A stretch of DNA of 63,095 bases, the filler included. It is 7 parts of 7 records of this genome, joined end to end, with 100 filler letters (N's around TTAATTAATTAA, not from the genome) between each part and the next. Parts side by side here need not be neighbours in the genome. Positions count along the whole stretch, not along the records: positions 7,126 to 19,110 come from SRR20825010_2451; 6 more parts are not named here. One strand, 5' to 3'. Positions 7,026 through 58,806 of the stretch are shown piece after piece. Position 1 is the stretch's first letter. The number at the start of each line of letters is the position of its first letter. A model generated the notes under the pieces. The model saw only the letters and a program-made list of their open reading frames with translations, ran no database searches and had not been told where the DNA came from. Made by a program: the position numbers and the translations under genes.

Positions 7026-7125
7026 NNNNNNNNNNNNNNNNNNNNNNNNNNNNNNNNNNNNNNNNNNNNTTAATTAATTAANNNNNNNNNNNNNNNNNNN
7101 NNNNNNNNNNNNNNNNNNNNNNNNN
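7026..7125. other. Artificial contig spacer
   Basis: N-run + TTAATTAATTAA (stops in all frames) + N-run. Confidence 0.99.
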
Positions 7126-10100
7126 CATCCAGACTTTCCCAGTTGTCACCACCCATGCGTGTGCGCCTGATCCAGTCCAGCGTAATATTGCCGCTTTCGT
7201 CTCGCTTCGCCTTCAGATGCACAGGCGACAACGGTCGCAAGCCAATACCGGAAAATGTCTTCGTCACTTGCGTGAAGCTTTCATCATCCATCGGTTTGGG
7301 CGCAGGTCCATAGGCCCAGATCCGCGCCAAACCGCGCTCGGCCTCGCTCACCCCCAGTTCGGCAATCGCCTGATCCAGCAGCACAAATCGAGCACCCACT
7401 TCTGCGCCTGCCTGCATTGCCACTTCAGTGCCCGCTTGCCCGCGCAGCAATCCACGCAATTCATATGTGTCGGTGGCGACAAGTTCAGCCTTGGCAAACT
7501 GGATCACTTCGTACTCGCCATTGGCCGCCTCGATTGCCGCCACATTTGCACCGGCCAGCACAGCGTTTTCATCTGCCGCAGACAATATGCCGGAGGTCAG
7601 CGTCACACGGATATCATTGGCAAAGTCCCAGCGGCTTGTCACACCTGCACCCAGCGCTGCAGCCAACCGTCCTGTCACCGCTTGCCGTGTCACAAGACGA
7701 TCGGCAACAAACCCGCCACCACTTTCCTTGAAGAAAGCCACGCCACCCGGCCACGGGTTTGCTGCTACTGCCACACGCGGCGCATATGGCGTTTCCGTAC
7801 CGCTCAGCAAAGGCAAATCCATGAACACAGCCAGCGGCACACCATAGCTCGGTGCAATTTCGCTCGTGTGGTCACGCTTCACGCTCTGCACGGGCCCGTA
7901 AAGGCCTGCCTCGCTGCGCACACCCTTTGCCTCGCGACGTCCTGCATCCGTGATCGCTGTCAGGCGATAGCGCGATTGACGCGCACCAAAATCCAGCGTC
8001 ACCACATCGCCGGGATCAAGCGCCAGTGCCGATGGCGGCAGAGACAGCGACAGGCTTTCTCGCTCCACCCAGCTTTGCTGCAACCAGGTATCTGCAATCT
8101 GCTGCGCCTCGGCCTGTGGCAACACCATGGAAAGCGCCGCACTTGCCACCCGTTGGCTCTGCACCGTCAGACGCCGCGATTCAATTGCAGCCTGTCTATA
8201 TTCCAGCGCCCCGTCGATATAGGTCAGCTTGGCCGAGACAGGCAGTTCAGTCTCTTGTCCGCGTGTCAGCTGATATCCCGCTGCTGCGTTTTCATCATCC
8301 ACCGCCAGACGGTCTGGTGTCAGCACCAATGCCGGTTCACTGCCAAAATGCCGGAAGCGGATCACGCCATGCACTTCGCTCGCATCAAAGAACCGCGCCA
8401 GCATCAGCGGTGCCAGCGCATCGCGCGGCGACATGATCCGGTCGATCACAAATCCGTCCACCGTGCCCGCAAGCTCGCTTGCATCGAATGCACCAAACCC
8501 CACATCCGCCATCACAGCGGATACAAGGTCGCCCAGCGGTGCCGCGCCCAACCGGCCGTTCAGCCAATGCCCTCGAGTCCAGACTTCGCCATCCGCCCAG
8601 ACATCCACCCGATCAGGAAAAGCCGGAAAGGGCCTCGCGTCCCAGCACCAGAAAAACAGCTTGGCCGGATCGAGCATCCGCTGGCCATAGACCGACGAGA
8701 CGGGATTATGCACGCCTGATTTATTCCAATAGTCCACCTGCGCTTCAATGAAAGCGCGTTGCATGAAATCATCGCGCGTGCCGGTCGAAAAATACGGTGC
8801 CGCATTTTCGGATGATTTCGGATCGGTGAATACATTGGGCTGGTTCGTACCCTTGTCGATGGCGGGACAACCGATCTCGGTAAAGACCACCGGCTTTCCT
8901 TCCGCCACCCATGCGGTCGGGGTCGCGCTTTCCACACCGCCCACGCGGTTATAATGCGCGTTCTGCCACCAAGCGGTTATATCTTTTGCCCGCCACACCC
9001 ATGGCTTGCCATAGGCGCCATCGGTAATGGGCGTACGTATCTGCGCTGCGCGGTCGGCATCGCCTGCATAATACCAGTCGAAATTTTCGCCACCCCTTAT
9101 CCGCGATTGCAGATAGGCCTTGTCATAGACCGATGTGGCAAGCGCATAGTCGAGATGGTTCGGTCCTTTACGCCAATCTGTCAGCGGTGCGTAATTGTCG
9201 ATCCCGACAAAATCCACATGCTCATCTGCCCAGAGCGGATCGAGATGAAAACAGAGATCGCCGGAGCCATCGTCAGGCGCATGAGCCGCAATCTCCGACC
9301 AGTCGGCGGCATAGGATATTTTTGTATCCGGCAGAATATAGGCCACATCGGCGGCTAGCGCGCGCAGCGCCTCAACAGCTGGATAAACACCGGCTGCGCC
9401 ACGTGACCATGTGAGCCCGCGCATTTCCGACCCGATCAGAAAGGCCTCCACGCCGCCCGCCGCTGCACACAACATTGCGTCATGCAGCACCATCCGGCGA
9501 TATGACCATTCATCCGGTCCGTCATAGATCACGGTGTCACCGCTCAGCGAAAAGTCTTCCCGCGCGGCAGCGCCGAAAAAAGCTGCCATCTGACTTGTGG
9601 CATCCGCCTCCATTTCTGCATCCGGCGTCACGGCAATGCGCCCGCGCCATGGATAGGCCGGTTGTGTCTCATTTCCGCTCCACGGGTCCGGCTTTGTATT
9701 GCCGGCGGGTATATCCATCATCACAAATGGATAGAACGTCACCTCAATTCCGCGCGCCTTCAGATCACGGATCGCGCTTACCACCGAGAGGTCAGACGGT
9801 GTGCCGCCAAAGGCTGGTCGGTCATCTGCGGTGCTTACCACTTGTGCCGCCGCGCGGGTCAATCCTGCCACAATCCATTGTCTGGGATGCGTTACCTTAT
9901 GGCGCTGCTCAACCTTCGGCCTGATCGTGCATTCGCCACATCGCAGATCGTCGCCAAACCATGTCACCACCAATGCGGCAGCCTCCACGCTGGTACAGGT
10001 CGCTTGCAGCTGGTCCATCGCCACTGCCCAGTCGCTGCCGCCTTCCGATGTATGCGTGTTGATCGCGCGGCTCGATGTTTCGGTCAGCAATTCGCGCTGC

Positions 10101-10807
10101 GGTGCAGGGTCATAGATAAATTCGCCCGCTCCGGGAATGATGTTCACCGCGCGGATTTTGCTTTCCACATCGCTCAGCGTCTTGAACACCTCGAACGAGA
10201 GCTGCGGCACGCGATTGCCGAAAGGCGACAGATCCATATCCTCAAATACGATATAGGCCGTGCCGCGATAGGCCGGTGCGTTGCCTTCCACAATCTCGAT
10301 CAATGGATCTGGTGCTTGCGTATCGTCACCATTATGCAGCCGCCAATTGATCCCCGACAGGTCTAGCGGCTTGCCATCCGCCCAGACACGCCCGACCCGT
10401 GTCACCACACCTTCGGCAAGCCCCACGGCCAGCGACACGCTGTAGCTATATTCGGTATAGCTCGCACCACCGCCACCGCCCTTGCCGCCGCCGGTTGATG
10501 TGGTTGCCGCATGTTCACGAAAATCCGTCGCCCAGATCACCTGTCCGGCCAGTCTTGCGCGGCCATAAAGACGTGGCAGCGCGGCACCCTCGGTTGAAGC
10601 CATCACCTGGAGGCTTGTCAGACGCGGGCCTTGCCCATGTGCAACAGCCGGTCCGAAAAGTTTGGCATCCACATAGGCGCCGATACCGGTGCCGATAGCA
10701 CTGCCAATCGCCGCGCCCGTCACTTGGGCGCCCAGAATGTTTACACCGGCAGGCAGCAGCGCATTGCCGAGCACCGATCCGGCGGTCGATAGAAGAAGTG
10801 TGGCCAT
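7126..10807 (-). CDS. GTA baseplate multidomain protein (megatron, g15-like; TIM-barrel plus phage-tail_3), 3'-truncated
   Basis: G-P-R-L, PAYRGTAY, FGNRVPQLSFEV, GGTPSD, YAADWSE, WDARPFP, GHWLNGR motifs. Confidence 0.92.
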
Positions 10808-10839
10808 GAAGACCTCTGATCAGGAGAATGAAGTGACGT

Positions 10840-11286
10840 TCAGGTCGCGGCAGGCGGAAAGCGGAATGCAAAAGCGATCTTTGATTTCCATGCGCGTCCA
10901 AGATGCGTTTCCACAACCGCATGGCCGCTATAGGCGTGGATCATGCGATCAGCTCCGCTCAGAATGGCCGCATGTTTTGCCGGTCCCCGTGCCCGCATAC
11001 GAAACAGCAGCACGTCGCCGGCGGCGGCCTCTTTCGGATCAATCTCAATCAGATGCCGCCTTGCACCCTCCGCCATCGTCTCGGCCAGTACCCCGCCTCC
11101 GGGTGTCTCTGCCCAGAATTGCGTGTATGCGGGCGGTGTCTCCGGTTCTCTGCCGTAAATTTCACGCCAGACACCGCGCACCAGTCCCAGACAATCCGTG
11201 CCCGCTCCCTTGCAACTTGCCTGATGATGGTAGGGCGTGCCGATCCAGCCGCGGGCGGCTTGCACAATCTGGTCGCGCTCACTCAT
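10840..11286 (-). CDS. NlpC/P60 phage cell-wall peptidase (g14-like)
   Basis: ARGWIGTPYHHQ, GTDCLGL, KH, IHAY. Confidence 0.92.
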   Translation of the reverse strand: MSERDQIVQAARGWIGTPYHHQASCKGAGTDCLGLVRGVWREIYGREPETPPAYTQFWAETPGGGVLAETMAEGARRHLIEIDPKEAAAGDVLLFRMRARGPAKHAAILSGADRMIHAYSGHAVVETHLGRAWKSKIAFAFRFPPAAT

Positions 11287-12136
11287 TGCCGCCTCCGCCG
11301 GGATAGGACATGACAAAATCATTTCCAGGCATATGTGGAAAGCCGCGAAAGTTGTCACCATTGGCGAATTTTTCCACGCAGGTCGAAAATTGTTTGTCAC
11401 ATCCTGCCGTCACCGAAAACGTGTCGCCCACTTCCACAGCGCGCGGCATGGCCTGCCATAGATCAATCACCGCGCCGTCTTGCGTCCTGGCGTGAAGCCG
11501 AACTTCCATCGAAGCGCCGTCATTGGCGCCGGAGGTGAATTGCAGCCGCCCCCGTGTGAACCAGTCCTCAGCATAGGCATCAAGCCCGCTTGCAGTGATA
11601 ATCCGATTGTCTTCCACTCCCGCCACCGTGCCGGATGTGGCCGCGAGCGTCACGCAACAGCGCAGGTCGCCCAAATCGGCATCACAACCATATTGATAGA
11701 GCCGTCCCACCGGCTGGTTCAGCCGATGTGCCAGCCCGCGCAATTCGGCAGCGAAGCCCGTCGCGCCGCGTGTCACCTCGCCCAGATTGCCTTTGCGCAG
11801 CAACACCCTTTGGTCTGTGTCCTGCCAGTTTACGCGCCAGATTTCGATTTCTGCATTGTCAAACAATCCGGCCACCAGATCGTTCTCGCTCAGTCTGTCA
11901 GACATGAGCGCACCGAGAATATCGAGATTGTCCACCGCCAGACCGGACGAGCTTTCCACCGCACTTGCGCCGAAGCCCGCCGCCGCCTCAAATCTCATTC
12001 CATCGAATTTGAGATCATCATCATGGTCGGTAAAACCCATCACTGTTCCGTCGCGCCGCGTCAGTTTCCAGACATGGCAGAGCGTTGTCGCACCGCTGTC
12101 GAGATGCACCTGCAAATCCGCTGAAAGTGTTTTCAT
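11279..12136 (-). CDS. Baseplate hub DUF2163/BR0599 (g13-like)
   Basis: GFTDHD, CDADLGD, AGCDK...C, NFRGFPHMPG. Confidence 0.92.
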   Translation of the reverse strand: MKTLSADLQVHLDSGATTLCHVWKLTRRDGTVMGFTDHDDDLKFDGMRFEAAAGFGASAVESSSGLAVDNLDILGALMSDRLSENDLVAGLFDNAEIEIWRVNWQDTDQRVLLRKGNLGEVTRGATGFAAELRGLAHRLNQPVGRLYQYGCDADLGDLRCCVTLAATSGTVAGVEDNRIITASGLDAYAEDWFTRGRLQFTSGANDGASMEVRLHARTQDGAVIDLWQAMPRAVEVGDTFSVTAGCDKQFSTCVEKFANGDNFRGFPHMPGNDFVMSYPGGGGNE

Positions 12137-12139
12137 CGC

Positions 12140-12778
12140 TCACACCCTCACTTCTATAATGGGAATATTGGGCACGGAGCCTGCCTCGAAAGCTGCCAGA
12201 TTGATCTCCAGAAAATCCGTGTCGAAGCGCACAGGCACATCAAAGGCAAAACCCGCCGTTACCTCCGCTCCCTCTGCCGGTTCGTGACCGTCGGCAAAAC
12301 TCACAATCCCGCTTGCTGCATCAAGCGTGAAATCCGTGCCCTCGCTTTGCAATGTGCCATCCACGGCCAGCAGCAGACTGCCTGCCACCGGCTTTGTGAT
12401 TTTGCGCGTCCAGCTGGCGCCGCCCGATGTGTAGCTTTTGACCAGCGCGAATGTTGTCATCGTGCCATCGCCCGTGCCGATCAGCTGGTCATCGGCTTGC
12501 GGCGTTTGTGCCGGTGCGCAGGATTTCCAGTCGGCGCGGTCCTTCCAGCGAAAGCCGGTCAACCGACCCCGCCGCGCCTCGAAGAAGGCGATCAGCTCAT
12601 GCACATCATCCAGCGAGCGCAATCCATAGCCCGCATTATATCGCCGCCGCGACCCCGCCCAGGGCGAGTTGCGCTCTTCAAAGCCCGAACCAAGCGTGAC
12701 GATTTCAGTGCGTCGTTCCGGCCCGCCTGTTGCGCCCAGCGCAATCTCGACGGGAAAGCGGATCTCATGGAAATTCAT
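12140..12778 (-). CDS. Distal tail protein DUF2460/TIGR02217 (g12-like)
   Basis: FHEIRFP, GGPERRTEIV, FFEARRG, FDVPVRFDTD. Confidence 0.92.
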   Translation of the reverse strand: MNFHEIRFPVEIALGATGGPERRTEIVTLGSGFEERNSPWAGSRRRYNAGYGLRSLDDVHELIAFFEARRGRLTGFRWKDRADWKSCAPAQTPQADDQLIGTGDGTMTTFALVKSYTSGGASWTRKITKPVAGSLLLAVDGTLQSEGTDFTLDAASGIVSFADGHEPAEGAEVTAGFAFDVPVRFDTDFLEINLAAFEAGSVPNIPIIEVRV

Positions 12779-12791
12779 TCTGTGCCCTCGC

Positions 12792-13433
12792 TCACATATT
12801 CCGCTGACCGCGCGCCGCCACACGCGCCATCATCGCAGCAATCTGGGTTTCAGAGCGCCGGAAGCTCTCGGCATCTTGTGCCGTTACATTGAAAACAATG
12901 TTGGGTGCGGTCCCGCCGCCATTTGCAGCCACCCCCAGTCGACCGTCGCTGCCACGCGCCAAAGGCATGATGGCCTCGGCTCCCGCCTCACCCATTAATC
13001 CGGTGCCGCCACGCAATGGAAAGAGCATCGGGCTTGCCACCACGCCGCCCTTGGCAAAGGGCTTCACGCGTCCGCCTGCCACCACATTGCCGTCAGCATT
13101 GGGTACCACACTGTTCAGACCATTACCGAGCGAGCTTCCGATCGAATTGCCAATCGACGTGCCGATGGATTTCGTCACATTACTCAGCGCCATACGCGAC
13201 AGGTCCAAAGCAAGATTTTTCAACGTATCGCCAAGCGATTTGCCTTTCAGCGCCACATCATCAAAAGCACCGGACAAGGCGCGGCCAAAGTCCCGCCCGC
13301 CTGCACCCGCGCGCCTGTATTCGCTCGCTACACCAGACAAAGTGCGCGTCGTCTCCACACCAAAAGCCTGTGTCGCAGCGCGCGCCGCATCCATCGCCGC
13401 TGTCAGTGCGACAGGGCCATTCGGATCAGCCAT
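12792..13433 (-). CDS. Short tail tape-measure protein (g11-like)
   Basis: 213 aa, PFAKGGVV, GLMGEAGAEAIMPL, FRRSETQIAA. Confidence 0.9.
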   Translation of the reverse strand: MADPNGPVALTAAMDAARAATQAFGVETTRTLSGVASEYRRAGAGGRDFGRALSGAFDDVALKGKSLGDTLKNLALDLSRMALSNVTKSIGTSIGNSIGSSLGNGLNSVVPNADGNVVAGGRVKPFAKGGVVASPMLFPLRGGTGLMGEAGAEAIMPLARGSDGRLGVAANGGGTAPNIVFNVTAQDAESFRRSETQIAAMMARVAARGQRNM

Positions 13434-13453
13434 AATTTTTATCCTTCAGATTT

Positions 13454-13684
13454 TTACCGACAAAGCGCGCGGGCTTCCTCACGCAACCGGCCATAGTCGG
13501 CCAGCATGCGGGCGGTCACTGCGTTCCTGTCCATTTGTGCCAAGTCTTCAGCCGCTTCTGCCTGCTCCGTGACGGAGTAGCTCGCCACATATAGGCACAG
13601 CCTGTCAGAAGCGCCCTTCGCGCATCCATTGAGCGGCATCAGCGACATTGCGAGGACCGCGCTCGCTTGCGTCACGTATCGCAT
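13454..13684 (-). CDS. Putative o-spanin (Rz1-like) lipoprotein
   Basis: ATG 13684 after GGGAGAG, lipobox LNG-C21, two further Cys, 76 aa, start embedded out of frame in the upstream gene. Confidence 0.65.
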   Translation of the reverse strand: MRYVTQASAVLAMSLMPLNGCAKGASDRLCLYVASYSVTEQAEAAEDLAQMDRNAVTARMLADYGRLREEARALCR

Positions 13685-13808
13685 GTTCTCTCTCCCGCAA
13701 GGCTTCCAGCGCCGCAGCTCTCGCCCGCTCCCGCGCCCAGAGATAGGCGAGCAGGCCGGACGAAAACTCCGCCAGCACACCAACTATCTTTGCAACTAGC
13801 TCCATCAT
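13605..13808 (-). CDS. Putative i-spanin (Rz-like)
   Basis: N-terminal hydrophobic segment followed by R/E/A coiled coil; 80-nt overlap with the lipoprotein gene; ATGA-coupled to the upstream gene. Confidence 0.6.
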   Translation of the reverse strand: MMELVAKIVGVLAEFSSGLLAYLWARERARAAALEALREREHAIRDASERGPRNVADAAQWMREGRF

Positions 13809-14173
13809 GCCGCGCTGCTCGTAGCGTTCACTTGCAGGCGGGCTTCGATCATACGGCGCAAATGCTCGCCATTCAGCCCCAGCGCCTTCACAGCATCGGG
13901 CACATGCACCAGCACATAATTGACAGCGTCTGCGGCCAGCTCGCTTTTCACATCGAGTGTCAGCCGGTCCTTGCCCAGCGCCTCAAGCCGCGACATAGCA
14001 AAGGCAATGCCCATGGCCAAAGCCTTGTCGAGGATCTGCCCCAACTCGCCGTCACGCTTGGCTTTCAACCACTGGCATATTTTTGCAACCGCATAGGAGG
14101 CAAATGCGGTCAGCACAGCCAGCAGCATTTCACTCACCAGCGGCTGCAGTACCGCAAGATCAATTGTCGTCAT
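13805..14173 (-). CDS. Putative holin (LL-H-like, one TM)
   Basis: One N-terminal TM (MLLAVLTAFASYAVAKICQWL) followed by amphipathic helices with YVxxxVPDA; GGAG SD; lies upstream of spanin-like pair. Confidence 0.55.
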   Translation of the reverse strand: MTTIDLAVLQPLVSEMLLAVLTAFASYAVAKICQWLKAKRDGELGQILDKALAMGIAFAMSRLEALGKDRLTLDVKSELAADAVNYVLVHVPDAVKALGLNGEHLRRMIEARLQVNATSSAA

Positions 14174-14197
14174 TTTTTCACTCCGTTTGGAATAAGG

Positions 14198-14383
14198 TCA
14201 GTCAGGAAAATTTTCTCTCAGGGCTTCAAAGTCTTTCCGCGTCGGGCCTGTCGCGCGTCTGTCGGATACGCTTCCGGCCGCCGCACATAGCTCGGGCAAT
14301 GTCATGGCCCAGAAGTCGCGCGGCGCGAGGCGCAAATGACCGAGGCCAATTTCCATTGCGCGGGTCCATGGAAATTCTTTCAT
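14198..14383 (-). CDS. Tail assembly chaperone (TAC_6, g10.1-like)
   Basis: LRLAPRDFWAMTLPEL...FPD. Confidence 0.88.
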   Translation of the reverse strand: MKEFPWTRAMEIGLGHLRLAPRDFWAMTLPELCAAAGSVSDRRATGPTRKDFEALRENFPD

Positions 14384-14697
14384 GTCTCCCCGCCGCTAAA
14401 GGTGGCTGTCAGCAGATCGGCCACAATGGCGATATAGCCGGCGGCCCCGCCTTGCGTGCTCATCTGCGCGACATCCTCGTCACTCACACTTGCGCCTGCG
14501 CCGCGCAAGCCAGCGCCTATCACGCGGATCGCATCACGTGCGCCGATCCGACCACTTTCAAAGCGTGTCGCCAGTGCCAGCATATCCTCGCCGCCAAAGG
14601 CATCTTCCAGTTCGGCCAATGCGCCCAGCGTCAGCACCAGCACGCGCGTCTCGCCGCCAAGTGTCGCTTCGATCTCGCCTCGATGTCTGTTTGCCAT
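14380..14697 (-). CDS. GTA-gp10 tail assembly chaperone
   Basis: MANRHRGEI, LTLGALAELE, LLTATF. Confidence 0.92.
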   Translation of the reverse strand: MANRHRGEIEATLGGETRVLVLTLGALAELEDAFGGEDMLALATRFESGRIGARDAIRVIGAGLRGAGASVSDEDVAQMSTQGGAAGYIAIVADLLTATFSGGET

Positions 14698-14703
14698 TTC
14701 TGA

Positions 14704-15117
14704 TTACGCCGCTGTAAAGGACAAAGCGCCGGCGCTTTCCAGCGCCATGTCGAATGTCACTTCGCCATCATGCTCGCCTGCATATTCCAGCGCTGTGATC
14801 TGGAACGCCCCCTGCACGATGCCGAAATCTGGAATGATGACCTGCCAATTGCGGATCGCGGCATCGAAAAAAACCAGCCGCACATCTCCGTCCGATGTCG
14901 CGTCACGGAATATGCCGCGTCCGCTGATACTGGCCGAGCGCGCACCCGCACCTGCCAGCAGCTCGCGCCACTGACCGGCGGATTCCGCATGGGTCACATC
15001 TACCGCGCGCGCGTTGAACGCCAATGTGCGGGCACGCAATCCGGCCACTGTCACGAATGTGCCTTCGCCGCTTGCATCCAGTTTGACCAGCAGGTCCTTG
15101 CCTTTTTGAGCTGTCAT
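14704..15117 (-). CDS. Major tail tube protein, TP901-1 family (g9-like)
   Basis: AQKGKDLL, TVAGLR, WRELL, IPDFG, ESAG. Confidence 0.93.
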   Translation of the reverse strand: MTAQKGKDLLVKLDASGEGTFVTVAGLRARTLAFNARAVDVTHAESAGQWRELLAGAGARSASISGRGIFRDATSDGDVRLVFFDAAIRNWQVIIPDFGIVQGAFQITALEYAGEHDGEVTFDMALESAGALSFTAA

Positions 15118-15120
15118 TGC

Positions 15121-15552
15121 CTATTCCATTTCCTGCAATTTTTCGGTGACGGCGCGAAAGCGGATTGTGCCGCGCCAGGTTGTTCCGTCTGGCTCACGAC
15201 GTGTCTCTGCCTGTTCAAAACGCAGATTGACCAGCGCATGACCTTCCAGCGTCAGTGCTGCGTCGTGCAATGTGCCCTGCACCGCACCCATGATGGCTTT
15301 GACCTCGGCACGCCCGCCGCCGCGCGACAGGGCATGCAGTACCAGCAAGTGTTCGGCCCCTTGGCTCTCGCCCTCGCTCCAGTCGCTCACCCGCGCCTCA
15401 CCCAGCGCGATATAGGGAAAACCCGTGTCGCCGGGTACATTGTCGTATATGCGTGACGCCACCAGCCCCGTCACATTCGTCTCGCTTGTCAGTCGGGCAT
15501 AGACCGCGGCCTGCAAGGCAAGATCGGCGGATGCCGCCATGTCCCAGCTCAT
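15121..15552 (-). CDS. Tail terminator DUF3168 (g8-like)
   Basis: LQAAVYARL, IYDNVP, FPYIALG, L.GH.LVNLRF, FRAVTE. Confidence 0.9.
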   Translation of the reverse strand: MSWDMAASADLALQAAVYARLTSETNVTGLVASRIYDNVPGDTGFPYIALGEARVSDWSEGESQGAEHLLVLHALSRGGGRAEVKAIMGAVQGTLHDAALTLEGHALVNLRFEQAETRREPDGTTWRGTIRFRAVTEKLQEME

Positions 15553-15869
15553 GCCACACCGCCTTCGGCTGAAAGCTCCAGCCATTGCCGCCGCCCGTCA
15601 GGGTCTCTGACCGAGCGAATATTGAATGTCTCACCGCGCCATATGGCCCGCATGTCCGTGGTCACATCTCCGCGATAACGCAGAGTGATCGTGTGGCGCT
15701 GTCGGGCCTCCAGCTTTTCGCCCAGCACAGCTTCTGTGCCATTGCGCGATGCCACTTCCGCCCAGACAGTTGCCAGCGCCTCCCATGTCACATCCGTCCC
15801 GCCTGCACCGTCATTGCTGCGGGTCGGCGCCTGGATCGTCACACGCTCGCGCAGCTTCCCAGCCCTCAC
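15549..15869 (-). CDS. Head-closure / stopper protein (SPP1 gp16-like, g7)
   Basis: GKLRERVTIQ, DGAGG, W..TVWA, ITLRYR. Confidence 0.9.
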   Translation of the reverse strand: MRAGKLRERVTIQAPTRSNDGAGGTDVTWEALATVWAEVASRNGTEAVLGEKLEARQRHTITLRYRGDVTTDMRAIWRGETFNIRSVRDPDGRRQWLELSAEGGVA

Positions 15870-16423
15870 AGCCGCACCCTGCGGTAGGGTGCCACCAGCG
15901 CCGCTACGCTTATCGGCAATTCATGCACGCTCTGGCCCAGTGCCACAGGTTCGCGATTGTCAAACCAATATGCGACCAGCATCAGGATCGCCTGTTTCAG
16001 CGGTGCGGGCACATCTTCAGCGCCGCCATATCCGGCTGTGAAGCTGATCGCGATGCCACCCACGCGGTTCACAGGCTGCGGCCATGCCGCCCGTGGCATT
16101 ACACAAGGCGCATCACCGGCCAATGCCGCTTCATAGTTGGCAGGTGCCACCGTCACCGCATCATCATCCAGCGTGATCCCTGTCACTTCGCTCACGGGCG
16201 CGAATGGCAATGTCACTTTTGCCTCGGGCCAATTGTCGAGGATCAGTTTCCAGCTTTGCGTCATGAAGGCGCGGCGTGTGTCCGCCTCCAGCACCATGCG
16301 CGCCGATGTGATCAGCACACCCAGCAGCATGTCCTCTGTCTCATTATCCAGCCGCAGATAGGCGCGGGCCTCCGCCAGCGACACAGGCTCGCCCGCCGGT
16401 CCCGTCAAAAGATGTAATGCCAT
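15866..16423 (-). CDS. Head-tail connector (HK97 gp6-like adaptor, g6)
   Basis: EPVSLAEARAYLRLD, AGYG, VPAPLKQAILMLVAYWFDNR. Confidence 0.92.
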   Translation of the reverse strand: MALHLLTGPAGEPVSLAEARAYLRLDNETEDMLLGVLITSARMVLEADTRRAFMTQSWKLILDNWPEAKVTLPFAPVSEVTGITLDDDAVTVAPANYEAALAGDAPCVMPRAAWPQPVNRVGGIAISFTAGYGGAEDVPAPLKQAILMLVAYWFDNREPVALGQSVHELPISVAALVAPYRRVRL

Positions 16424-16445
16424 GTCTCACCCAAATTATAGTTTG

Positions 16446-16491
16446 AAAAATATCTGCTCCGGCCACCGGGGGGCAGGAAGCCGGAGCAGAT
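16446..16491 (-). terminator. Intrinsic terminator / stabilising hairpin after the capsid genes
   Basis: 12-bp perfect stem ATCTGCTCCGGC/GCCGGAGCAGAT followed by ATTTTT on the minus strand. Confidence 0.7.
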
Positions 16492-16509
16492 CCGCGAAGC
16501 AAACAGCCG

Positions 16510-16941
16510 TCAGGCTGTCGGCTTCACATGCGCTGCCCCCAGCACAGCCAGCGCCGATACAGGCGTACCATTGCTATGCGTGCCAGTAAGCAAAAGCCTT
16601 ACGCGGCTATAGCGGGCATGGCCCACATAGCCGATGCGATATTCCACCTGTGCGGCCTCGTCGCTCTCCACGCTTGCGAAAATGCCGTTCTCGTCGGGCA
16701 ATGCGCCCAGCACATGGCTCGCATCTGTCACGGCGGCCCAGTTGCTGCCGTCTTCGGAGGCTTCCAGTTTCACATCCGTTTTCACCGTGCCCGACAGCGT
16801 GTCGCCGCTCGCACCGAAGAGAACGATATGTTCCACCGCTTCAAACCCTGCGCGGTCCACAGGGGCGCCCGCACGGTTTGCCGTTGTCACGGCGGGGTCC
16901 AGTGTCTGCACGGTTTTGATATTGTGATGCAGGTCTTTCAT
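16510..16941 (-). CDS. Phage hypothetical protein, possible capsid decoration/cement protein
   Basis: Directly after the MCP with strong GGAGG SD; beta-rich; YRIGYVG.RY.RV motif. Confidence 0.75.
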   Translation of the reverse strand: MKDLHHNIKTVQTLDPAVTTANRAGAPVDRAGFEAVEHIVLFGASGDTLSGTVKTDVKLEASEDGSNWAAVTDASHVLGALPDENGIFASVESDEAAQVEYRIGYVGHARYSRVRLLLTGTHSNGTPVSALAVLGAAHVKPTA

Positions 16942-16954
16942 CTTTCACGCCTCC

Positions 16955-18301
16955 TTACGCTGTGCCGAATTTCAGAAGTTTCAGCGCCTCGAAATTCTGC
17001 ACGCCGCCGCCCACACGTTTTGTCGTGTAGAAAAGCACGTAAGGTTTCGAGCTATAGGGATCGCGCAGCACGCGCACGCCCAGCCGGTCCACGATCAGAT
17101 AGCCGCGTTTGAAATCGCCGAAGGCCAGCGCACAGGCATCCGTCGTCATGGAGGGCATGTCTTCTGCTTCCGTCACGGGATAGTTGAGCAGCGTCGGCGG
17201 GGCACCGGCGGCAATGCCGGGCTGCCAGAGATAATTGCCGTCAATATCCTTGAACTTGCGGATCGCTGATTGCGTCGCGCGGTTCATCACAAAGCGGCCA
17301 TTGGCGCGATAGCCCGCCTTCACCGCATAAACGAGGTCGATCAGAATATCGGCAGGGTTCGAAGCGGAGAAGGCACCGTTCGAGCCGGTCAGCAGATAGC
17401 CGAGCTTGCCATGGCTCCAGTCAGCGTCGGCCACTTTGTCATAGGAGAGAAAGCCACGCGGGCGGCGGATGCCGTCACCCGTCACAAAGGCCGCGCTTTC
17501 CTGTTCGGCAAAGGCGGTCTGCACTTCCTCCGCCAGCCACTGGTCGATATTCACTGCCGCATCGTCCAGCAGCGTCGAGGTTGCCGCCGGCATGGCATAG
17601 AGTTCCATCGCCGGAAACTCGATCTCGGAAAGCTGTGCGCTGTCTGTCTGCACGCGGCCTTCGCTCTCGCCCACCCAGCCGCTGGCAAAACCTGAAGTGG
17701 CAAAAGGCTTCTTGTAGCTTGCCGCCCCGATCTGGCGCACACCCGCAATGGCGCGGATGGGCGATGCTTCCGACACGATGCGGTCGATCATCCGTTCGGT
17801 TTCGGCTGGCACCAGATAGCCGCCATCAGGATCGGACTGGGCCGAAAGTGCCTTGGCTTCAAGGTGGCGCAGTTCATGTGTCTCGCCCTTGCGCACATAG
17901 GTGTCGAAGGCGCGTTTGTGTTCGCGCTTGGAGGGGTCGAGACGCGTCTGCATCTCGCCGCTCATATCCGGCCGCTGAAAGGCCAGCGTCAGCTCGTCCA
18001 CTGTCTTTTTCTGGCGGTCCAGCGCGCGGTTGATGCGCTCCACCTTGTCGTCTGTCACCACATCGGCGCTCATCTTGCGTTCGATCTGGTCGAGGCGCTC
18101 GTCATTGGCCTGTTTGAAATCCTCGAACGCGCCGAGGAAATCATCCAGCGCGTCACGCACTTCATGTGCCGCCGGTGTGCTTTTTGTTTCCAGCACGCCA
18201 TTGGCGCTTTTGGTTTCCAGCTTTCGCCCGTCATTTGCGCTGCGGGCATGCGTCTTCAGTGACGCCCCGATGCGCGGGACGCCTTTCTCGATTGCACTCA
18301 T
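16955..18301 (-). CDS. Major capsid protein, HK97 family (g5)
   Basis: DGGYLVP, ELYAMPAAT, FGDFKRGYLIVDR, RDPYSSKPYVLFYTTKRVGG. Confidence 0.96.
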   Translation of the reverse strand: MSAIEKGVPRIGASLKTHARSANDGRKLETKSANGVLETKSTPAAHEVRDALDDFLGAFEDFKQANDERLDQIERKMSADVVTDDKVERINRALDRQKKTVDELTLAFQRPDMSGEMQTRLDPSKREHKRAFDTYVRKGETHELRHLEAKALSAQSDPDGGYLVPAETERMIDRIVSEASPIRAIAGVRQIGAASYKKPFATSGFASGWVGESEGRVQTDSAQLSEIEFPAMELYAMPAATSTLLDDAAVNIDQWLAEEVQTAFAEQESAAFVTGDGIRRPRGFLSYDKVADADWSHGKLGYLLTGSNGAFSASNPADILIDLVYAVKAGYRANGRFVMNRATQSAIRKFKDIDGNYLWQPGIAAGAPPTLLNYPVTEAEDMPSMTTDACALAFGDFKRGYLIVDRLGVRVLRDPYSSKPYVLFYTTKRVGGGVQNFEALKLLKFGTA

Positions 18302-18322
18302 CGGTGCTCCTTTATCGTCTGG

Positions 18323-18880
18323 TCAGGATTTGAAAATTTGCGAAGCCAGGCGGAATGCCCGTGCCACGCCCACACTCGGGCCACCCGCTGTCATGCGGGC
18401 ACCCGCCTTCACCGCGCTCACACGCGCCTGCGGCAACATGGGAAATGTCACAACCGAGATTTCCCACAAGTCCACTTCTGTCAGCCTGCGCAAACCCGTC
18501 TTGCGATCCTGCTGCGCCTTGACCACGTGATAGCCGATGGACAATCCGTCAATCGCGCCTGCCCGCATCAAGCTCAACACCTCGCGCGAGCGCGCCACAT
18601 CGTCCAGCAATTGCCCACGCACGAAAAGCCCGCGCCGGTCTTCAGACAATGCAGTCCAGAAACCGATCGGCTCGGCAGGGTCATGCTGATAGAGCAGCTT
18701 CACGCCTCTCTGCCCGCGCTTTTTCAGCGATGTGCGAAACGCACCGGGCATCACCATGTCACGGCCCAGGTCTTCCGCACCGAACAGCGACGCATAGCCT
18801 TCAAAACTCCCGTCGCCCCCCACCGACTTGAAACTCACCCGCGTCGCCTTGCGCTCAATATTCTGCATCCGCTCGCTCAC
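18323..18880 (-). CDS. Prohead protease, HK97 family (g4)
   Basis: FEGYASLF, LLYQHD, DGLSIGY, LWEISVVTFPMLP. Confidence 0.95.
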   Translation of the reverse strand: MSERMQNIERKATRVSFKSVGGDGSFEGYASLFGAEDLGRDMVMPGAFRTSLKKRGQRGVKLLYQHDPAEPIGFWTALSEDRRGLFVRGQLLDDVARSREVLSLMRAGAIDGLSIGYHVVKAQQDRKTGLRRLTEVDLWEISVVTFPMLPQARVSAVKAGARMTAGGPSVGVARAFRLASQIFKS

Positions 18881-18914
18881 GCGACCTCCTGTGGGTTTTC
18901 AAATTTTGGACAAT

Positions 18915-18937
18915 AAAAAAGCACCCCGCGGGGTGCT
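18915..18937 (-). terminator. Intrinsic terminator inside the GTA cluster
   Basis: Palindrome AGCACCCCGCGGGGTGCT followed by a U-tract on the minus strand. Confidence 0.75.
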
Positions 18938-18955
18938 CAAACTTCGCTCTTGATT

Positions 18956-19004
18956 CCCCTCTCCCTCTGGGAAAGGGAAGGACCCGCTTGCGGGAGGGTG
19001 AGGG
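18956..19004. repeat. Alphaproteobacterial REP-like palindromic element
   Basis: CCCCTCTCCC..GGGAAAGGG...GGGAGGGTGAGGG architecture; single copy in the window. Confidence 0.6.
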
Positions 19005-19016
19005 TCTTGTCTTGCC

Positions 19017-19109
19017 TCACCTCTCAGCAATCACCTGATCCAGTTTTGCCTCGATCCGTGTCAGCGATGCCCGCATGGCCTTGGCCTGCTCGTCCAGCCG
19101 CGCGGTGCG
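19017..19109 (-). CDS. 3' end of small GTA hypothetical gene upstream of the protease (partial; not in ORF track)
   Basis: Translates RTARLDEQAKAMRASLTRIEAKLDQVIAER*, coiled coil, same strand as the cluster. Confidence 0.65.
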   Translation of the reverse strand, partial: RTARLDEQAKAMRASLTRIEAKLDQVIAER

Positions 19110-19110
19110 T

Positions 19111-19210
19111 NNNNNNNNNNNNNNNNNNNNNNNNNNNNNNNNNNNNNNNNNNNNTTAATTAATTAANNNNNNNNNNNNNNNNNNNNNNNNNNNNNNNNNN
19201 NNNNNNNNNN
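19111..19210. other. Artificial contig spacer
   Basis: N-run + TTAATTAATTAA + N-run. Confidence 0.99.
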
Positions 19211-27309: not shown

Positions 27310-27409
27310 NNNNNNNNNNNNNNNNNNNNNNNNNNNNNNNNNNNNNNNNNNNNTTAATTAATTAANNNNNNNNNNNNNNNNNNNNNNNNNNNNNNNNNNN
27401 NNNNNNNNN
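27310..27409. other. Artificial contig spacer
   Basis: N-run + TTAATTAATTAA + N-run. Confidence 0.99.
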
Positions 27410-30779: not shown

Positions 30780-30879
30780 NNNNNNNNNNNNNNNNNNNNN
30801 NNNNNNNNNNNNNNNNNNNNNNNTTAATTAATTAANNNNNNNNNNNNNNNNNNNNNNNNNNNNNNNNNNNNNNNNNNNN
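30780..30879. other. Artificial contig spacer
   Basis: N-run + TTAATTAATTAA + N-run. Confidence 0.99.
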
Positions 30880-39661: not shown

Positions 39662-39761
39662 NNNNNNNNNNNNNNNNNNNNNNNNNNNNNNNNNNNNNNN
39701 NNNNNTTAATTAATTAANNNNNNNNNNNNNNNNNNNNNNNNNNNNNNNNNNNNNNNNNNNN
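39662..39761. other. Artificial contig spacer
   Basis: N-run + TTAATTAATTAA + N-run. Confidence 0.99.
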
Positions 39762-58706: not shown

Positions 58707-58806
58707 NNNNNNNNNNNNNNNNNNNNNNNNNNNNNNNNNNNNNNNNNNNNTTAATTAATTAANNNNNNNNNNNNNNNNNNNNNNNNNNNNNNNNNNNNNN
58801 NNNNNN
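58707..58806. other. Artificial contig spacer
   Basis: N-run + TTAATTAATTAA + N-run. Confidence 0.99.

What the first reader, a model, noticed from the sequence alone, without database searches (positions are those of the whole stretch)
13454..14173. Holin plus overlapped two-component spanin cassette embedded in the tail module of a GTA cluster
Seen: three extra, translationally coupled genes sit between the tail chaperone (TAC_6) and the tape-measure gene. They are a 122-aa single-TM protein, a 67-aa TM plus coiled-coil protein (ATGA overlap), and a 76-aa lipoprotein (lipobox LNG-C21, two more Cys, own GGGAG SD). The lipoprotein starts 80 nt inside the previous gene in another frame. Known: this nested architecture is the hallmark of Rz/Rz1 overlapped spanins. 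In R. capsulatus RcGTA, g10.1 and g11 are adjacent and the holin/endolysin genes lie elsewhere in the genome. Inference: this lineage has a GTA carrying its own inner- and outer-membrane lysis genes, co-transcribed with particle assembly. No endolysin is visible in the contig, so it is either unlinked, beyond the contig ends, or replaced by a host or virion hydrolase. Caveat: the i-spanin TM contains K and E and may be degenerate.
Basis: partly seen in the sequence, partly recalled or inferred. Interest (0 to 1): 0.78.

Follow-up and report, generated by a model that had tools for sequence, protein, structure and literature searches.

The report
Phage lysis genes inside a GTA cluster
Three small membrane-protein genes that in true phages sit beside the cell-wall-degrading enzyme have been inserted into, and kept within, the tail genes of a gene transfer agent in Parvibaculum bacteria, which suggests that this agent carries part of its own cell-bursting machinery.

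Summary
On the minus strand, between g10.1 (TAC_6) and the tape-measure gene g11, lie a 122-aa one-TM protein (H), a 67-aa protein (I, ATGA overlap) and a 76-aa lipoprotein (O, 80-nt overlap, other frame).

The trio is a real, conserved insertion. It occupies the same place in 18 of 20 Parvibaculum-type loci. dN/dS is 0.21-0.39, like the neighbouring GTA genes. In 10 of 30 loci of the same order, g10.1 and g11 are 8-31 nt apart.

Homologues outside this clade are not in GTA clusters. The I/O pair follows a peptidoglycan hydrolase in five of five cultured phages inspected. H directly follows an amidase, GH108 or SleB-type endolysin in two cultured phages and four prophages.

Best reading (0.55): a phage holin-like gene plus a compact two-component spanin, domesticated inside an RcGTA-type cluster and used for GTA release.

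Weak points:
- H misses the Pfam Holin_LLH cut-off.
- No endolysin is linked.
- No function was tested.

The window is seven contigs joined by linkers. The GTA contig is only 7126-19110, so the window's flanks say nothing about context.

The parts
13805..14173 (-). H: 122-aa holin-like protein. It has one N-terminal TM (about residues 16-36), predicted N-out/C-in, and a helical C-terminal domain of about 85 aa.
   Evidence: ORF. Pfam Phage_holin_6_1 at E=1.4e-3, 19.4 bits against a cut-off of 24.9. phrog_17576 at E=6.2e-11. Charge is -2 before the TM and K/K/R after it. AF2 model is all-helical with pLDDT 72.5. dN/dS 0.23.
13605..13808 (-). I: 67-aa candidate i-spanin. It has an N-terminal hydrophobic segment with conserved K7 and an acidic residue near 14, a helical middle, and a conserved C-terminal RLRDG-x-F end.
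   Evidence: ORF. Alignment A2 of 17 sequences has invariant P52 and F67 and nearly invariant R61 L62 R63 G65. Best 19-aa hydropathy is 1.55, with a family median of 1.64. dN/dS of the non-overlapped codons is 0.39. No Pfam, PHROG or NCBIfam hit.
13454..13684 (-). O: 76-aa candidate o-spanin, an outer-membrane-type lipoprotein. It has lipobox LNG-C21 with Ala at +2, conserved C30 and C75, and a helical hairpin.
   Evidence: ORF and GGGAG Shine-Dalgarno. phrog_26778 at E=2.7e-11. Alignment A3 has invariant C21 C30 Y36 Q41 D63 Y64 L67 R68 R72 C75. The profile finds 1541 proteins at E<=1e-3. Lipobox statistics. AF2 pLDDT 87.3 with helices 38-50 and 56-75. dN/dS of the non-overlapped codons is 0.21.
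14198..14383 (-). g10.1 tail assembly chaperone; upstream border of the insertion.
   Evidence: Pfam Phage_TAC_6 at E=2.4e-16.
14380..14697 (-). g10 (GTA-gp10 family).
   Evidence: Pfam Phage_TAC_11 at E=2.6e-30.
12792..13433 (-). g11, a short tape-measure protein (213 aa); downstream border of the insertion.
   Evidence: NCBIfam RcGTA_tape at E=1.3e-58, 198.3 bits, below the cut-off of 220. Also matches tape-measure PHROGs.
7126..18880 (-). RcGTA-type head-tail cluster on this contig. Order: g4 protease, g5 capsid, connector, head completion, tail completion, g9 tube, g10, g10.1, H-I-O, g11, g12, g13, g14, g15. g15 is cut by the contig end.
   Evidence: Pfam hits: Peptidase_S78, Phage_capsid, Phage_connect_1, Phage_HCP, Tail_completion_gp17, Phage_tail_2, DUF2460, Phage_BR0599, NLPC_P60, GTA_TIM, Phage-tail_3, Rcc01698_C.
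19111..19210 (.). Artificial contig linker (N44-TTAATTAATTAA-N44). The GTA contig ends here, 230 nt upstream of g4.
7026..7125 (.). Artificial contig linker. The GTA contig begins at 7126, inside g15.

Best explanation
A three-gene piece of a phage lysis cassette was inserted between g10.1 and g11 of the RcGTA-type cluster in the Parvibaculum lineage. It has been kept there as part of the tail operon.

Proposed mechanism (inferred, not shown):
1. When the cluster is transcribed, H, I and O are made together with the particle proteins.
2. H is a one-TM, N-out/C-in holin-like protein. It accumulates in the inner membrane and at some point permeabilises it. This gives a peptidoglycan hydrolase, encoded elsewhere, access to the wall.
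3. I is anchored in the inner membrane. Its conserved C-terminal RLRDG-x-F end meets O.
4. O is an outer-membrane lipoprotein with a small helical hairpin, probably stapled by Cys30-Cys75.
5. Once the wall is gone, the I/O bridge disrupts the outer membrane and the particles are released.

Shown here: the genes, their conservation, purifying selection, lipoprotein signals, the insertion relative to sister lineages, and the lysis-cassette context of the homologues.

Inferred: membrane topology of I, I-O binding, hole formation by H, co-transcription, and use in GTA release.
For: (1) Real genes. H, I and O are all present in 18 of 20 Parvibaculum-type loci. One of the other two ends inside H, and one has H only. 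Two pairs of these loci look like the same sequence from two collections. Median dN/dS is 0.23 for H, 0.39 for I (non-overlapped codons) and 0.21 for O (non-overlapped codons). The neighbours g10.1 and g11 give 0.25 and 0.21.

(2) An insertion. In the order, 56 of 73 genomes have g11. Of the 30 loci fetched:
- 13 have H-I-O.
- 1 has H only.
- 10 have g10.1 and g11 8-31 nt apart.
- 2 have a gap of about 425 nt.
- 3 carry two lipoprotein-like genes instead.
- 1 is unresolved.

(3) Homologues elsewhere are phage lysis genes, not GTA genes. H homologues occur in 12 of 400 other Alphaproteobacteria. None of the 16 loci fetched has g9-g13 nearby. H directly follows:
- a Hydrolase_2 endolysin in L043;
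- a GH108 endolysin in L044, L057 and L058;
- an Amidase_2 endolysin in Paracoccus phage Shpa and Aeromonas phage HJ05.
Shpa gp28 belongs to the same phrog_17576 as H.

(4) The I/O pair. O-family ORFs are preceded by a 74-82-aa ORF ending in an (A/R)L(R)(D/R)G motif in five of five cultured phages inspected. These are Rhizobium RHph_I20, Roseobacter CRP-235, Rhodobacter RcSimone-Hastad and RcRudolph, and Acetobacter phiAX1. In four of them the pair lies one to three genes after a gene annotated as lysozyme or cell wall hydrolase. In phiAX1 the neighbour was not scanned. The genes overlap in four of the five and are separate in phiAX1.

(5) PHROG links. The phage O proteins hit the same phrog_26778 as the window's O. 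The CRP-235 I protein hits phrog_1026 'Rz-like spanin' at E=2e-5. The phiAX1 I protein hits phrog_2536 'Rz-like spanin' at E=2.6e-3.

(6) Lipoprotein signal in the O family. Among 147 members, the lipobox Cys is present in 147, Leu at -3 in 123, G/A/S at -1 in 147, and Asp at +2 in none. In L013 the overlapped signal peptide lost its Cys, and a new signal peptide with a lipobox arose downstream.

(7) Length. The summed periplasmic length, about 42 + 55 aa, is within the 62-300 range reported for two-component spanins (PMC6139136, passages read).

(8) Operon layout. Intergenic distances are 24 and 20 nt, plus the ATGA overlap. No promoter-like or terminator-like site lies in these spacers.

(9) GTA rather than prophage. 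In P. sedimenti the cluster runs from terminase and portal to g15. The ten flanking ORFs scanned are cellular or without a match, and none is an integrase or a replication gene.
Against: - No endolysin is in the cluster. Six endolysin types from the related cassettes and two SleB-type genes of P. sedimenti find nothing in the window. GH108 and Phage_lysozyme are not found in P. sedimenti, although the GH108 search also rang in none of its 14 control genomes, so it shows little.
- H does not reach the Pfam Holin_LLH cut-off. Only 3 of 27 family members hit the family at E<=0.01. The structural matches to holins have E of 0.05-0.6.
- In L057 and L058 a LydA-type holin (E=4e-19 in L057) already stands upstream of the endolysin. 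H may therefore be an accessory protein there.
- Several prophage H homologues appear to carry a cleavable signal peptide. That is unusual for a holin (their starts are not verified).
- The hydrophobic segment of I is marginal (1.55) and carries K and E.
- Neither I nor O matches any curated spanin family directly. 0 of 147 O-family members hit Pfam LysC.
- The positional I/O analogues in prophages are not significant by profile, with E about 0.5-1.
- One lineage (L020, and L091, which may be the same genome) keeps H but lacks I and O.
- The same junction holds unrelated cargo in other genomes, so presence here does not prove a GTA function.
- No expression or functional data exist.
Confidence: 0.55

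Rival explanations
1. I and O form a spanin, but H is not the holin. H would be an accessory lysis protein, such as an antiholin, a timing regulator or a membrane anchor. The real holin and the endolysin would be encoded elsewhere, as in R. capsulatus.
For: L057 and L058 have a LydA-type holin (E=4e-19 in L057) upstream of the endolysin as well as H downstream. H misses the Holin_LLH cut-off. Some homologues seem to have signal peptides. RHph_I20, RcSimone-Hastad and RcRudolph pair I/O with a different small two-TM protein and have no H.
Against: H follows endolysins of three enzyme classes. In Shpa and HJ05 no other holin was recognised among the neighbours scanned. Three independent weak leads point to LL-H holins. 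In the GTA cluster H is the only holin-like gene.
Confidence: 0.2
2. The trio is cargo carried at a hot spot of the cluster (a 'moron'). It would be kept for a cell-envelope function unrelated to GTA release, such as exclusion of phages or GTAs at the surface, or envelope maintenance.
For: The g10.1|g11 junction holds other, unrelated secreted or lipoprotein genes in related genomes, some on the opposite strand. No endolysin is linked. One lineage lost I and O. Outer-membrane lipoproteins next to tail genes can be exclusion proteins (recalled: Cor, Llp).
Against: Homologues of all three sit in lysis cassettes of lytic phages, not beside receptor-binding genes. The trio is on the operon strand with coupled starts. 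The overlapped I/O architecture is kept exactly in 15 of 15 loci.
Confidence: 0.15
3. The cluster is an ordinary or decaying prophage, and the trio is simply its lysis cassette.
For: The window's own contig shows only g4-g15, so its flanks are unknown. IMG/VR lists four such Parvibaculum loci as viral contigs. g11 scores below the RcGTA_tape cut-off.
Against: In P. sedimenti the cluster is flanked by a class A PBP, a CxxCxxCC protein, an SDR, acyl-CoA dehydrogenases and a histidine kinase. The same cluster is present in 56 of 73 genomes of the order. It has a short 213-aa tape measure and g12-g15 of GTA type. The lysis genes sit in the middle of the tail genes and have no endolysin.
Confidence: 0.05

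Closest known systems
Two-component spanins of overlapped architecture (P2 LysB/LysC type; prototype lambda Rz/Rz1)
   Same: A small inner-membrane-type protein and an outer-membrane-type lipoprotein are encoded by overlapping genes in different frames, and homologues sit next to an endolysin. The lipobox has no Asp at +2. The summed periplasmic length is within the published range.
   Different: The pair is much shorter: I has about 42 periplasmic residues. O is a confidently folded helical hairpin with two conserved Cys, not a proline-rich unstructured chain. I has no periplasmic Cys. There is no hit to Pfam LysC (0 of 147), and the window proteins hit no spanin PHROG. The pair stands inside a tail operon with no endolysin.
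LL-H type holins (Pfam PF09682, Phage_holin_6_1)
   Same: Similar length, one N-terminal TM and a charged helical C-terminal part. Pfam match of residues 14-73 at E=1.4e-3. One ESM Atlas cluster, in which 20% of members carry PF09682, scores 0.90. Four of the ten best BFVD matches are named holin or Holin_LLH, with TM-scores of 0.51-0.64.
   Different: The score is below the family cut-off, and only 3 of 27 relatives hit it. H belongs to phrog_17576, 'unknown function'. No member has been tested, as far as the sources I saw say.
RcGTA lysis genes rcc00555 (endolysin) and rcc00556 (holin) of Rhodobacter capsulatus
   Same: Phage-type lysis genes serving an RcGTA-type particle (PMC8601537 and PMC6209664, passages read).
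   Different: Those genes are unlinked to the head-tail cluster, include an endolysin, and have no reported spanin. Here a holin-like gene and a spanin pair are inside the cluster, and the endolysin is missing. The sequences were not compared, because no RcGTA sequence was fetched.
LypABC of Caulobacter crescentus GTA
   Same: A dedicated release system for an RcGTA-related GTA (PMC13236601, passages read).
   Different: LypABC is a CARD-NLR-like immune-type system and gives non-explosive ghost-cell lysis. That paper reports no canonical holin-endolysin homologues in that genome. The Parvibaculum genes are classical phage-type membrane lysis genes.
VSH-1 of Brachyspira (recalled, not checked here)
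   Same: A GTA whose cluster is said to include its own lysis genes.
   Different: It is unrelated to RcGTA-type clusters. Its lysis module is separate and is said to include an endolysin. This statement rests on memory. [quoted passage not shown]

Membership tests
Two-component spanin | o-spanin has an outer-membrane lipoprotein signal (signal peptide, lipobox Cys, no inner-membrane retention residue at +2) | tested here: met
   The sequence reads LNG-C21-A. In the family, Cys is present in 147 of 147, Leu at -3 in 123, G/A/S at -1 in 147, and Asp at +2 in none. No SignalP-type predictor was available.
Two-component spanin | i-spanin has an N-terminal transmembrane domain, N-in/C-out, with a helical periplasmic domain | tested here: inconclusive
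   The best 19-aa hydropathy is 1.55 (family 1.18-2.05), with conserved K and an acidic residue inside the segment. Phage homologues range from clearly hydrophobic (RHph_I20, CRP-235) to similar K/E-bearing segments (RcSimone-Hastad). Topology and coiled coil were not tested.
Two-component spanin | The genes are adjacent, in embedded, overlapped or separated architecture | tested here: met
   The window has an 80-nt overlap in another frame. The same overlap is found in 15 of 15 relatives measured. In L013 the genes are separated after replacement of the signal peptide.
Two-component spanin | Part of a lysis cassette with an endolysin and a holin | tested here: not met
   The cluster has no endolysin, and none was found in the window. 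The feature is met for homologues: in four of the five cultured phages inspected the pair lies one to three genes after an annotated lysozyme or cell wall hydrolase.
Two-component spanin | The i- and o-subunits bind through their periplasmic ends and span the periplasm | not testable with these tools
   This needs pull-down or two-hybrid assays of the periplasmic domains. The summed length of about 97 aa is inside the published 62-300 range (PMC6139136).
Two-component spanin | Sequence membership in a curated spanin family | tested here: not met
   For I, Pfam, NCBIfam and PHROGs give nothing. O hits only phrog_26778, 'unknown function'. 0 of 147 O-family members hit Pfam LysC. Only the phage homologues give weak hits to 'Rz-like spanin' PHROGs, at E=2e-5 to 8e-3.
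Holin_LLH (PF09682) | Score at or above Pfam's gathering cut-off (24.9 bits) | tested here: not met
   19.4 bits at E=1.4e-3. 3 of 27 relatives hit at E<=0.01.
Holin (functional class) | Small membrane protein with at least one TM and a charged C-terminus, encoded next to an endolysin | tested here: inconclusive
   The TM and the charged C-terminal domain are present. Adjacency to an endolysin is met in homologues (L043, L044, L057, L058, Shpa, HJ05) but not in the window.
Holin (functional class) | Forms lethal membrane lesions that release or activate an endolysin | not testable with these tools
   This needs induction and complementation assays.
RcGTA-type gene transfer agent cluster | Homologues of the head-tail genes g2-g15 in RcGTA order | tested here: met
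   The window contig has g4-g15. In P. sedimenti the terminase and portal are contiguous with the cluster. g1 and g3.5 were not examined.
RcGTA-type gene transfer agent cluster | RcGTA-type short tape measure (NCBIfam NF058675 equivalog) | tested here: inconclusive
   E=1.3e-58 with a full-length alignment, but 198.3 bits is below the cut-off of 220.
RcGTA-type gene transfer agent cluster | No integrase, lysogeny or replication genes; cellular flanks | tested here: met
   Tested in the relative only. Of the ten flanking ORFs of P. sedimenti, one is the terminase, six hit cellular families and three hit nothing. The window's own flanks are other contigs.
RcGTA-type gene transfer agent cluster | Particles package random host DNA and cannot transfer their own cluster | not testable with these tools
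   No GTA activity of Parvibaculum turned up in print in my search (three papers, none on this).

The most novel reading that the evidence does not exclude
This GTA releases itself without any dedicated endolysin. The in-cluster holin-like protein and the compact spanin would work with the particle's own wall hydrolases (g14 NlpC/P60, the g15 TIM-barrel domain) or with a membrane-anchored host SleB-type hydrolase. The tail operon would then be a complete release device with its own timing. On this reading the g10.1|g11 junction is a general cargo-acquisition site through which a supposedly non-mobile GTA keeps gaining genes.
Probability: 0.12. Interest if true: 0.85.

Novelty: new variant of a known kind. 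Interest (0 to 1): 0.62.

Why it matters
How GTA producers burst is an open and active question. Rhodobacter uses an unlinked holin and endolysin. Caulobacter uses an immune-type system, LypABC (PMC13236601). No outer-membrane step is described for either in the passages I read.

A genus-wide, selected holin-like gene plus spanin pair inside the tail operon would be a third arrangement. It would also be the first spanin tied to an RcGTA-type agent. My search for 'gene transfer agent' with 'spanin' returned 15 papers, and by their titles and abstracts none describes one.

It also shows that RcGTA-type clusters can take up phage genes at a defined junction.

Separately, the I/O pair defines a large family. 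The O profile finds 1541 proteins at E<=1e-3. Pfam and NCBIfam have no model for the family, the PHROG it hits is labelled 'unknown function', and none of the source names I saw calls it a spanin. Recognising it would improve the annotation of lysis cassettes in alphaproteobacterial phages.

Tried and rejected
- tblastn of H and O against cultured phages found nothing at E<=0.01. Divergent family members used as queries did find phages.
- Complex prediction on I residues 24-67 with O residues 21-76 gave no verdict (score 0.30, mark 0.34). The alignments were not used and the controls were not run. This is no evidence either way.
- The look-up of sequencing runs listed no RNA holder, only two DNA-type runs of one study.
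- The Foldseek search of the O model against BFVD found nothing below E=3.
- The Foldseek search of the H model found no match at E<=0.001. I use its holin-named hits only as a weak lead.
- Profiles of I and O against the 17 distant H loci gave no significant hit (best E=0.014, at an unrelated place). The positional analogues score E about 0.5-1, so I call them analogues by position and motif, judged by eye.
- The Pfam scan of 147 O-family members found no LysC or Rz1 hit.
- Source names for O-family proteins are only 'hypothetical protein' or 'lipoprotein'.
- Endolysin hunt in P. sedimenti: GH108 and Phage_lysozyme were not found. The GH108 search also rang in no control genome, so it is uninformative. 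Two SleB-type Hydrolase_2 genes exist. The one I looked at has an N-terminal hydrophobic anchor and housekeeping neighbours. No link to the GTA was shown.
- I considered reading H as the i-spanin partner of O and rejected it. The charge distribution and the signal-peptide-bearing homologues put the C-terminal domain of H in the cytoplasm, and O overlaps I, not H.
- The search of earlier findings returned nothing.
- The output was cut. As a result, the genes upstream of H in L045-L055 were not all read.
- The supplementary tables of PMC6139136 (SpaninDB) could not be seen. They may already list members of this I/O family, for example from roseophages.
Full report
**What is there**

On the minus strand of the window the order is g9 tube (14704-15117), g10 (14380-14697), g10.1 (14198-14383), H (13805-14173, 122 aa), I (13605-13808, 67 aa), O (13454-13684, 76 aa), g11 tape measure (12792-13433), then g12, g13, g14 and g15.

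- The H stop and the I start overlap in ATGA.
- O starts 80 nt inside I, in another frame.
- O has GGGAGAG 6 nt upstream of its ATG.
- O has lipobox LNG-C21 and two more cysteines, C30 and C75.
- The spacers g10.1-H and O-g11 are 24 and 20 nt. The consensus scan finds no promoter-like or terminator-like site in them. That is weak evidence.

**A correction to the setting**

The window is not one contig. Six N44-TTAATTAATTAA-N44 linkers join seven contigs. The contig that carries the finding is 7126-19110. It starts inside g15 and ends 230 nt upstream of the g4 protease. The thiamine, cytochrome, pgl and panB genes on either side in the window belong to other contigs. The missing portal and terminase are therefore only a contig break.

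In Parvibaculum sedimenti (handle G001, locus L017) the portal and a Terminase_6N/6C protein are contiguous with the cluster. Its flanks are a CxxCxxCC protein, a class A penicillin-binding protein, a short-chain dehydrogenase, two acyl-CoA dehydrogenase-like proteins and a histidine kinase. Three further ORFs had no match. This fits an RcGTA-type cluster and not a prophage. The flanks were read in a relative, not in the window's own genome.

**The trio is conserved and selected**

H homologues at 57-94% identity come only from Parvibaculum and Parvibaculaceae records (59 proteins).

In 20 Parvibaculum-type loci, tblastn finds H, I and O together in 18. One of the other two ends inside H, and one (L020) has H only. 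L004/L010 and L007/L017 look like the same sequences from two collections, so about 16 loci are independent.

| Gene or region | Median pairwise dN/dS |
|---|---|
| H | 0.23 |
| I, non-overlapped codons | 0.39 |
| O, non-overlapped codons | 0.21 |
| g10.1 | 0.25 |
| g11 | 0.21 |
| g12 | 0.18 |

In the overlap, the O frame (its signal peptide) shows dN/dS of about 1, as expected for a shared stretch.

The 80-nt overlap is exact in 15 of 15 loci. In L013 the overlapped signal peptide has lost its cysteine and ends in a stop. A new signal peptide with a lipobox has arisen about 60 nt downstream, giving separated genes. This is a natural indication that lipoprotein status is what is being kept.

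**It is an insertion**

In the order that holds P. sedimenti, 56 of 73 genomes have a g11 homologue. Eighteen have an H match, 16 of them close and 2 distant.

| State of the 30 g11 loci fetched | Loci |
|---|---|
| H-I-O present | 13 |
| H only | 1 |
| g10.1 and g11 8-31 nt apart, no H, I or O | 10 |
| Gap of about 425 nt | 2 |
| No g10.1 within 1.5 kb; two lipoprotein-like genes upstream of g11 | 3 |
| Unresolved | 1 |

The adjacent arrangement known from RcGTA is therefore the likely ancestral state. The junction has taken up different cargo in different lineages. Several Parvibaculum loci also carry 2-3 kb of secreted-protein genes between g10.1 and H, or 0.9 kb between O and g11.

**What the three proteins are like elsewhere**

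*H.* A profile of H finds homologues in 12 of 400 other alphaproteobacterial genomes, some with several copies. None of the 16 loci fetched has g9-g13 nearby.

H directly follows:
- a Hydrolase_2 (SleB-type) endolysin in L043;
- GH108 endolysins in L044, L057 and L058;
- Amidase_2 endolysins in Paracoccus phage Shpa (gp27-gp28) and Aeromonas phage HJ05 (gp62-gp63).

In an IMG/VR contig (L008), H stands between a pair made of an i-spanin-like protein and a LysC-like lipoprotein, and an SLT-domain protein. Shpa gp28 and HJ05 gp63 fall in the same phrog_17576 as H.

*H as a holin.* The links to LL-H holins are all weak:
- Pfam at E=1.4e-3, below the cut-off, with 3 of 27 relatives hitting;
- one ESM Atlas cluster at 0.90 in which 20% of members carry PF09682;
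- four holin-named entries among the ten best BFVD matches, at E=0.05-0.6.

The charge distribution is -2 before the TM and K/K/R after it. Signal-peptide-like N-terminal extensions appear in several prophage homologues, whose starts are unverified. Both point to an N-out, C-in topology. That fits a holin-like protein and argues against H being an i-spanin.

In L057 and L058 a LydA-type holin is also present. H may therefore be a second holin or an accessory protein in those phages.

*O.* The O profile finds 1541 proteins at E<=1e-3 among 1.84 billion representatives. In the 147 best:
- the lipobox Cys is invariant;
- Leu is at -3 in 123;
- G/A/S is at -1 in all;
- Asp is never at +2;
- 132 have exactly two further cysteines.

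No Pfam family covers them. The source names are 'hypothetical' or 'lipoprotein'. The AF2 model of O is confident (pLDDT 87). It shows a helical hairpin after a short linker, with C30 before the first helix and C75 at the end of the second. A disulfide between them is my inference.

*I/O in cultured phages.* Using family members as queries, O-like ORFs appear in eight cultured phages. I inspected five. In all five, O is preceded by a 74-82-aa ORF with an N-terminal hydrophobic segment and a C-terminal motif like that of I.

| Phage | C-terminal motif of the I-like ORF |
|---|---|
| RHph_I20 | ALRDGLF |
| CRP-235 | RLRRDGL |
| RcSimone-Hastad and RcRudolph | RLRDGSA |
| phiAX1 | ARLDGGGA |

In four of the five the pair lies one to three genes downstream of a gene annotated as lysozyme or cell wall hydrolase, with a small two-TM protein in between in three. 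For RHph_I20 the Pfam support for the hydrolase is only CHAP at E=1.6e-3. The phiAX1 neighbour was not scanned.

The CRP-235 I protein hits phrog_1026 'Rz-like spanin' (E=2e-5) and the phiAX1 I protein hits phrog_2536 (E=2.6e-3). The phage O proteins hit phrog_26778, like the window's O.

It is a family trait, not decay.

Five prophage loci (L043, L045, L046, L047, L053) have a short TM-type ORF and an overlapping lipoprotein right after H. These share motifs such as AVADEL and (W/Y)(L/G)RL...C with O. I read this by eye, and the profiles do not score them significantly.

**Mechanism and confidence**

The best-supported reading is that H-I-O is a lysis cassette without its endolysin. It would have been captured from a phage of the kind seen in L043 (endolysin-H-I-O) and kept in the tail operon of the Parvibaculum GTA.

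My confidence by part:
- about 0.8 that I/O is a spanin-type pair;
- about 0.6 that H acts as a holin;
- 0.55 for the whole statement, including use in GTA release.

The summed periplasmic length (about 97 aa) is within the 62-300 aa reported for two-component spanins (PMC6139136, passages). The missing endolysin is the main gap. None of eight hydrolase queries finds anything in the window. P. sedimenti has two SleB-type genes of unknown relation to the GTA.

**Comparison with what is known**

RcGTA uses an unlinked endolysin and holin, rcc00555 and rcc00556 (PMC8601537, PMC5721377 and PMC6209664, passages). The Caulobacter GTA uses LypABC, and that paper reports no canonical holin-endolysin genes (PMC13236601, passages).

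Three searches returned 15, 3 and 3 papers: 'gene transfer agent' with 'spanin', 'Parvibaculum' with 'gene transfer agent', and 'RcGTA-like' with 'holin' and 'tape measure'. By their titles and abstracts, or the passages I read, none describes lysis genes inside an RcGTA-type cluster.

That VSH-1 of Brachyspira carries lysis genes in its cluster is recalled, not checked.

I therefore rate this a new variant of known kinds: a GTA cluster with an embedded, endolysin-less phage lysis module, built from a compact spanin family that curated libraries do not yet name.

Noticed in passing
window 7026-7125, 19111-19210, 27310-27409, 30780-30879, 39662-39761, 58707-58806: Six artificial linkers (N44-TTAATTAATTAA-N44) show that the window is seven contigs joined end to end. 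Synteny across these points is meaningless. ORFs that run into a linker, such as g15 at 7070-10807, are truncated genes.
   Followed up: yes
L015:5294-7905 and 8725-9603; L004:5910-7871; L102, L111, L113 upstream of g11: The g10.1|g11 junction of the GTA cluster is a cargo hot spot in this order. Different genomes carry one to three genes for secreted or lipoprotein-like proteins of about 215-340 aa there, some on the opposite strand, with or without H-I-O. The ~320-aa ORFs of L004 and the 338-aa ORF of L015 look like one type. The ~250-aa and ~215-aa lipoproteins of L015, L102, L111 and L113 form another pair. Their function is unknown.
   Followed up: partly
L013:1571-2064: In this one locus the overlapped signal peptide of O has Tyr in place of the lipobox Cys and runs into a stop. 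A new signal peptide and lipobox lie about 60 nt downstream, so I and O are separated genes. This is a natural example of a change in spanin gene architecture.
   Followed up: partly
L020:8001-8534 (and L091): One Parvibaculum genome keeps H, but only about 170 nt of non-coding-looking DNA lies where I and O should be, just before g11.
   Followed up: partly
L045, L046, L048, L052, L053, L054, downstream of H: In Mu-like prophages, H and the short I/O-like pair are followed by a TraR/DksA-type zinc-finger ORF and a protein of about 140 aa with one TM and a long helical region. This looks like a recurrent module order. It was read by eye only and not scanned.
   Followed up: no
L061 1126-1866 (P. 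sedimenti): One of two SleB-type (Hydrolase_2) genes has an N-terminal hydrophobic anchor. It is a possible membrane-tethered wall hydrolase that a holin-like protein could release, but no link to the GTA was shown.
   Followed up: no
window 16510-16941 (minus strand): A 143-aa ORF between the capsid gene and the head-tail connector gene has no Pfam match. It sits where small head-decoration or unknown genes lie in such clusters.
   Followed up: no
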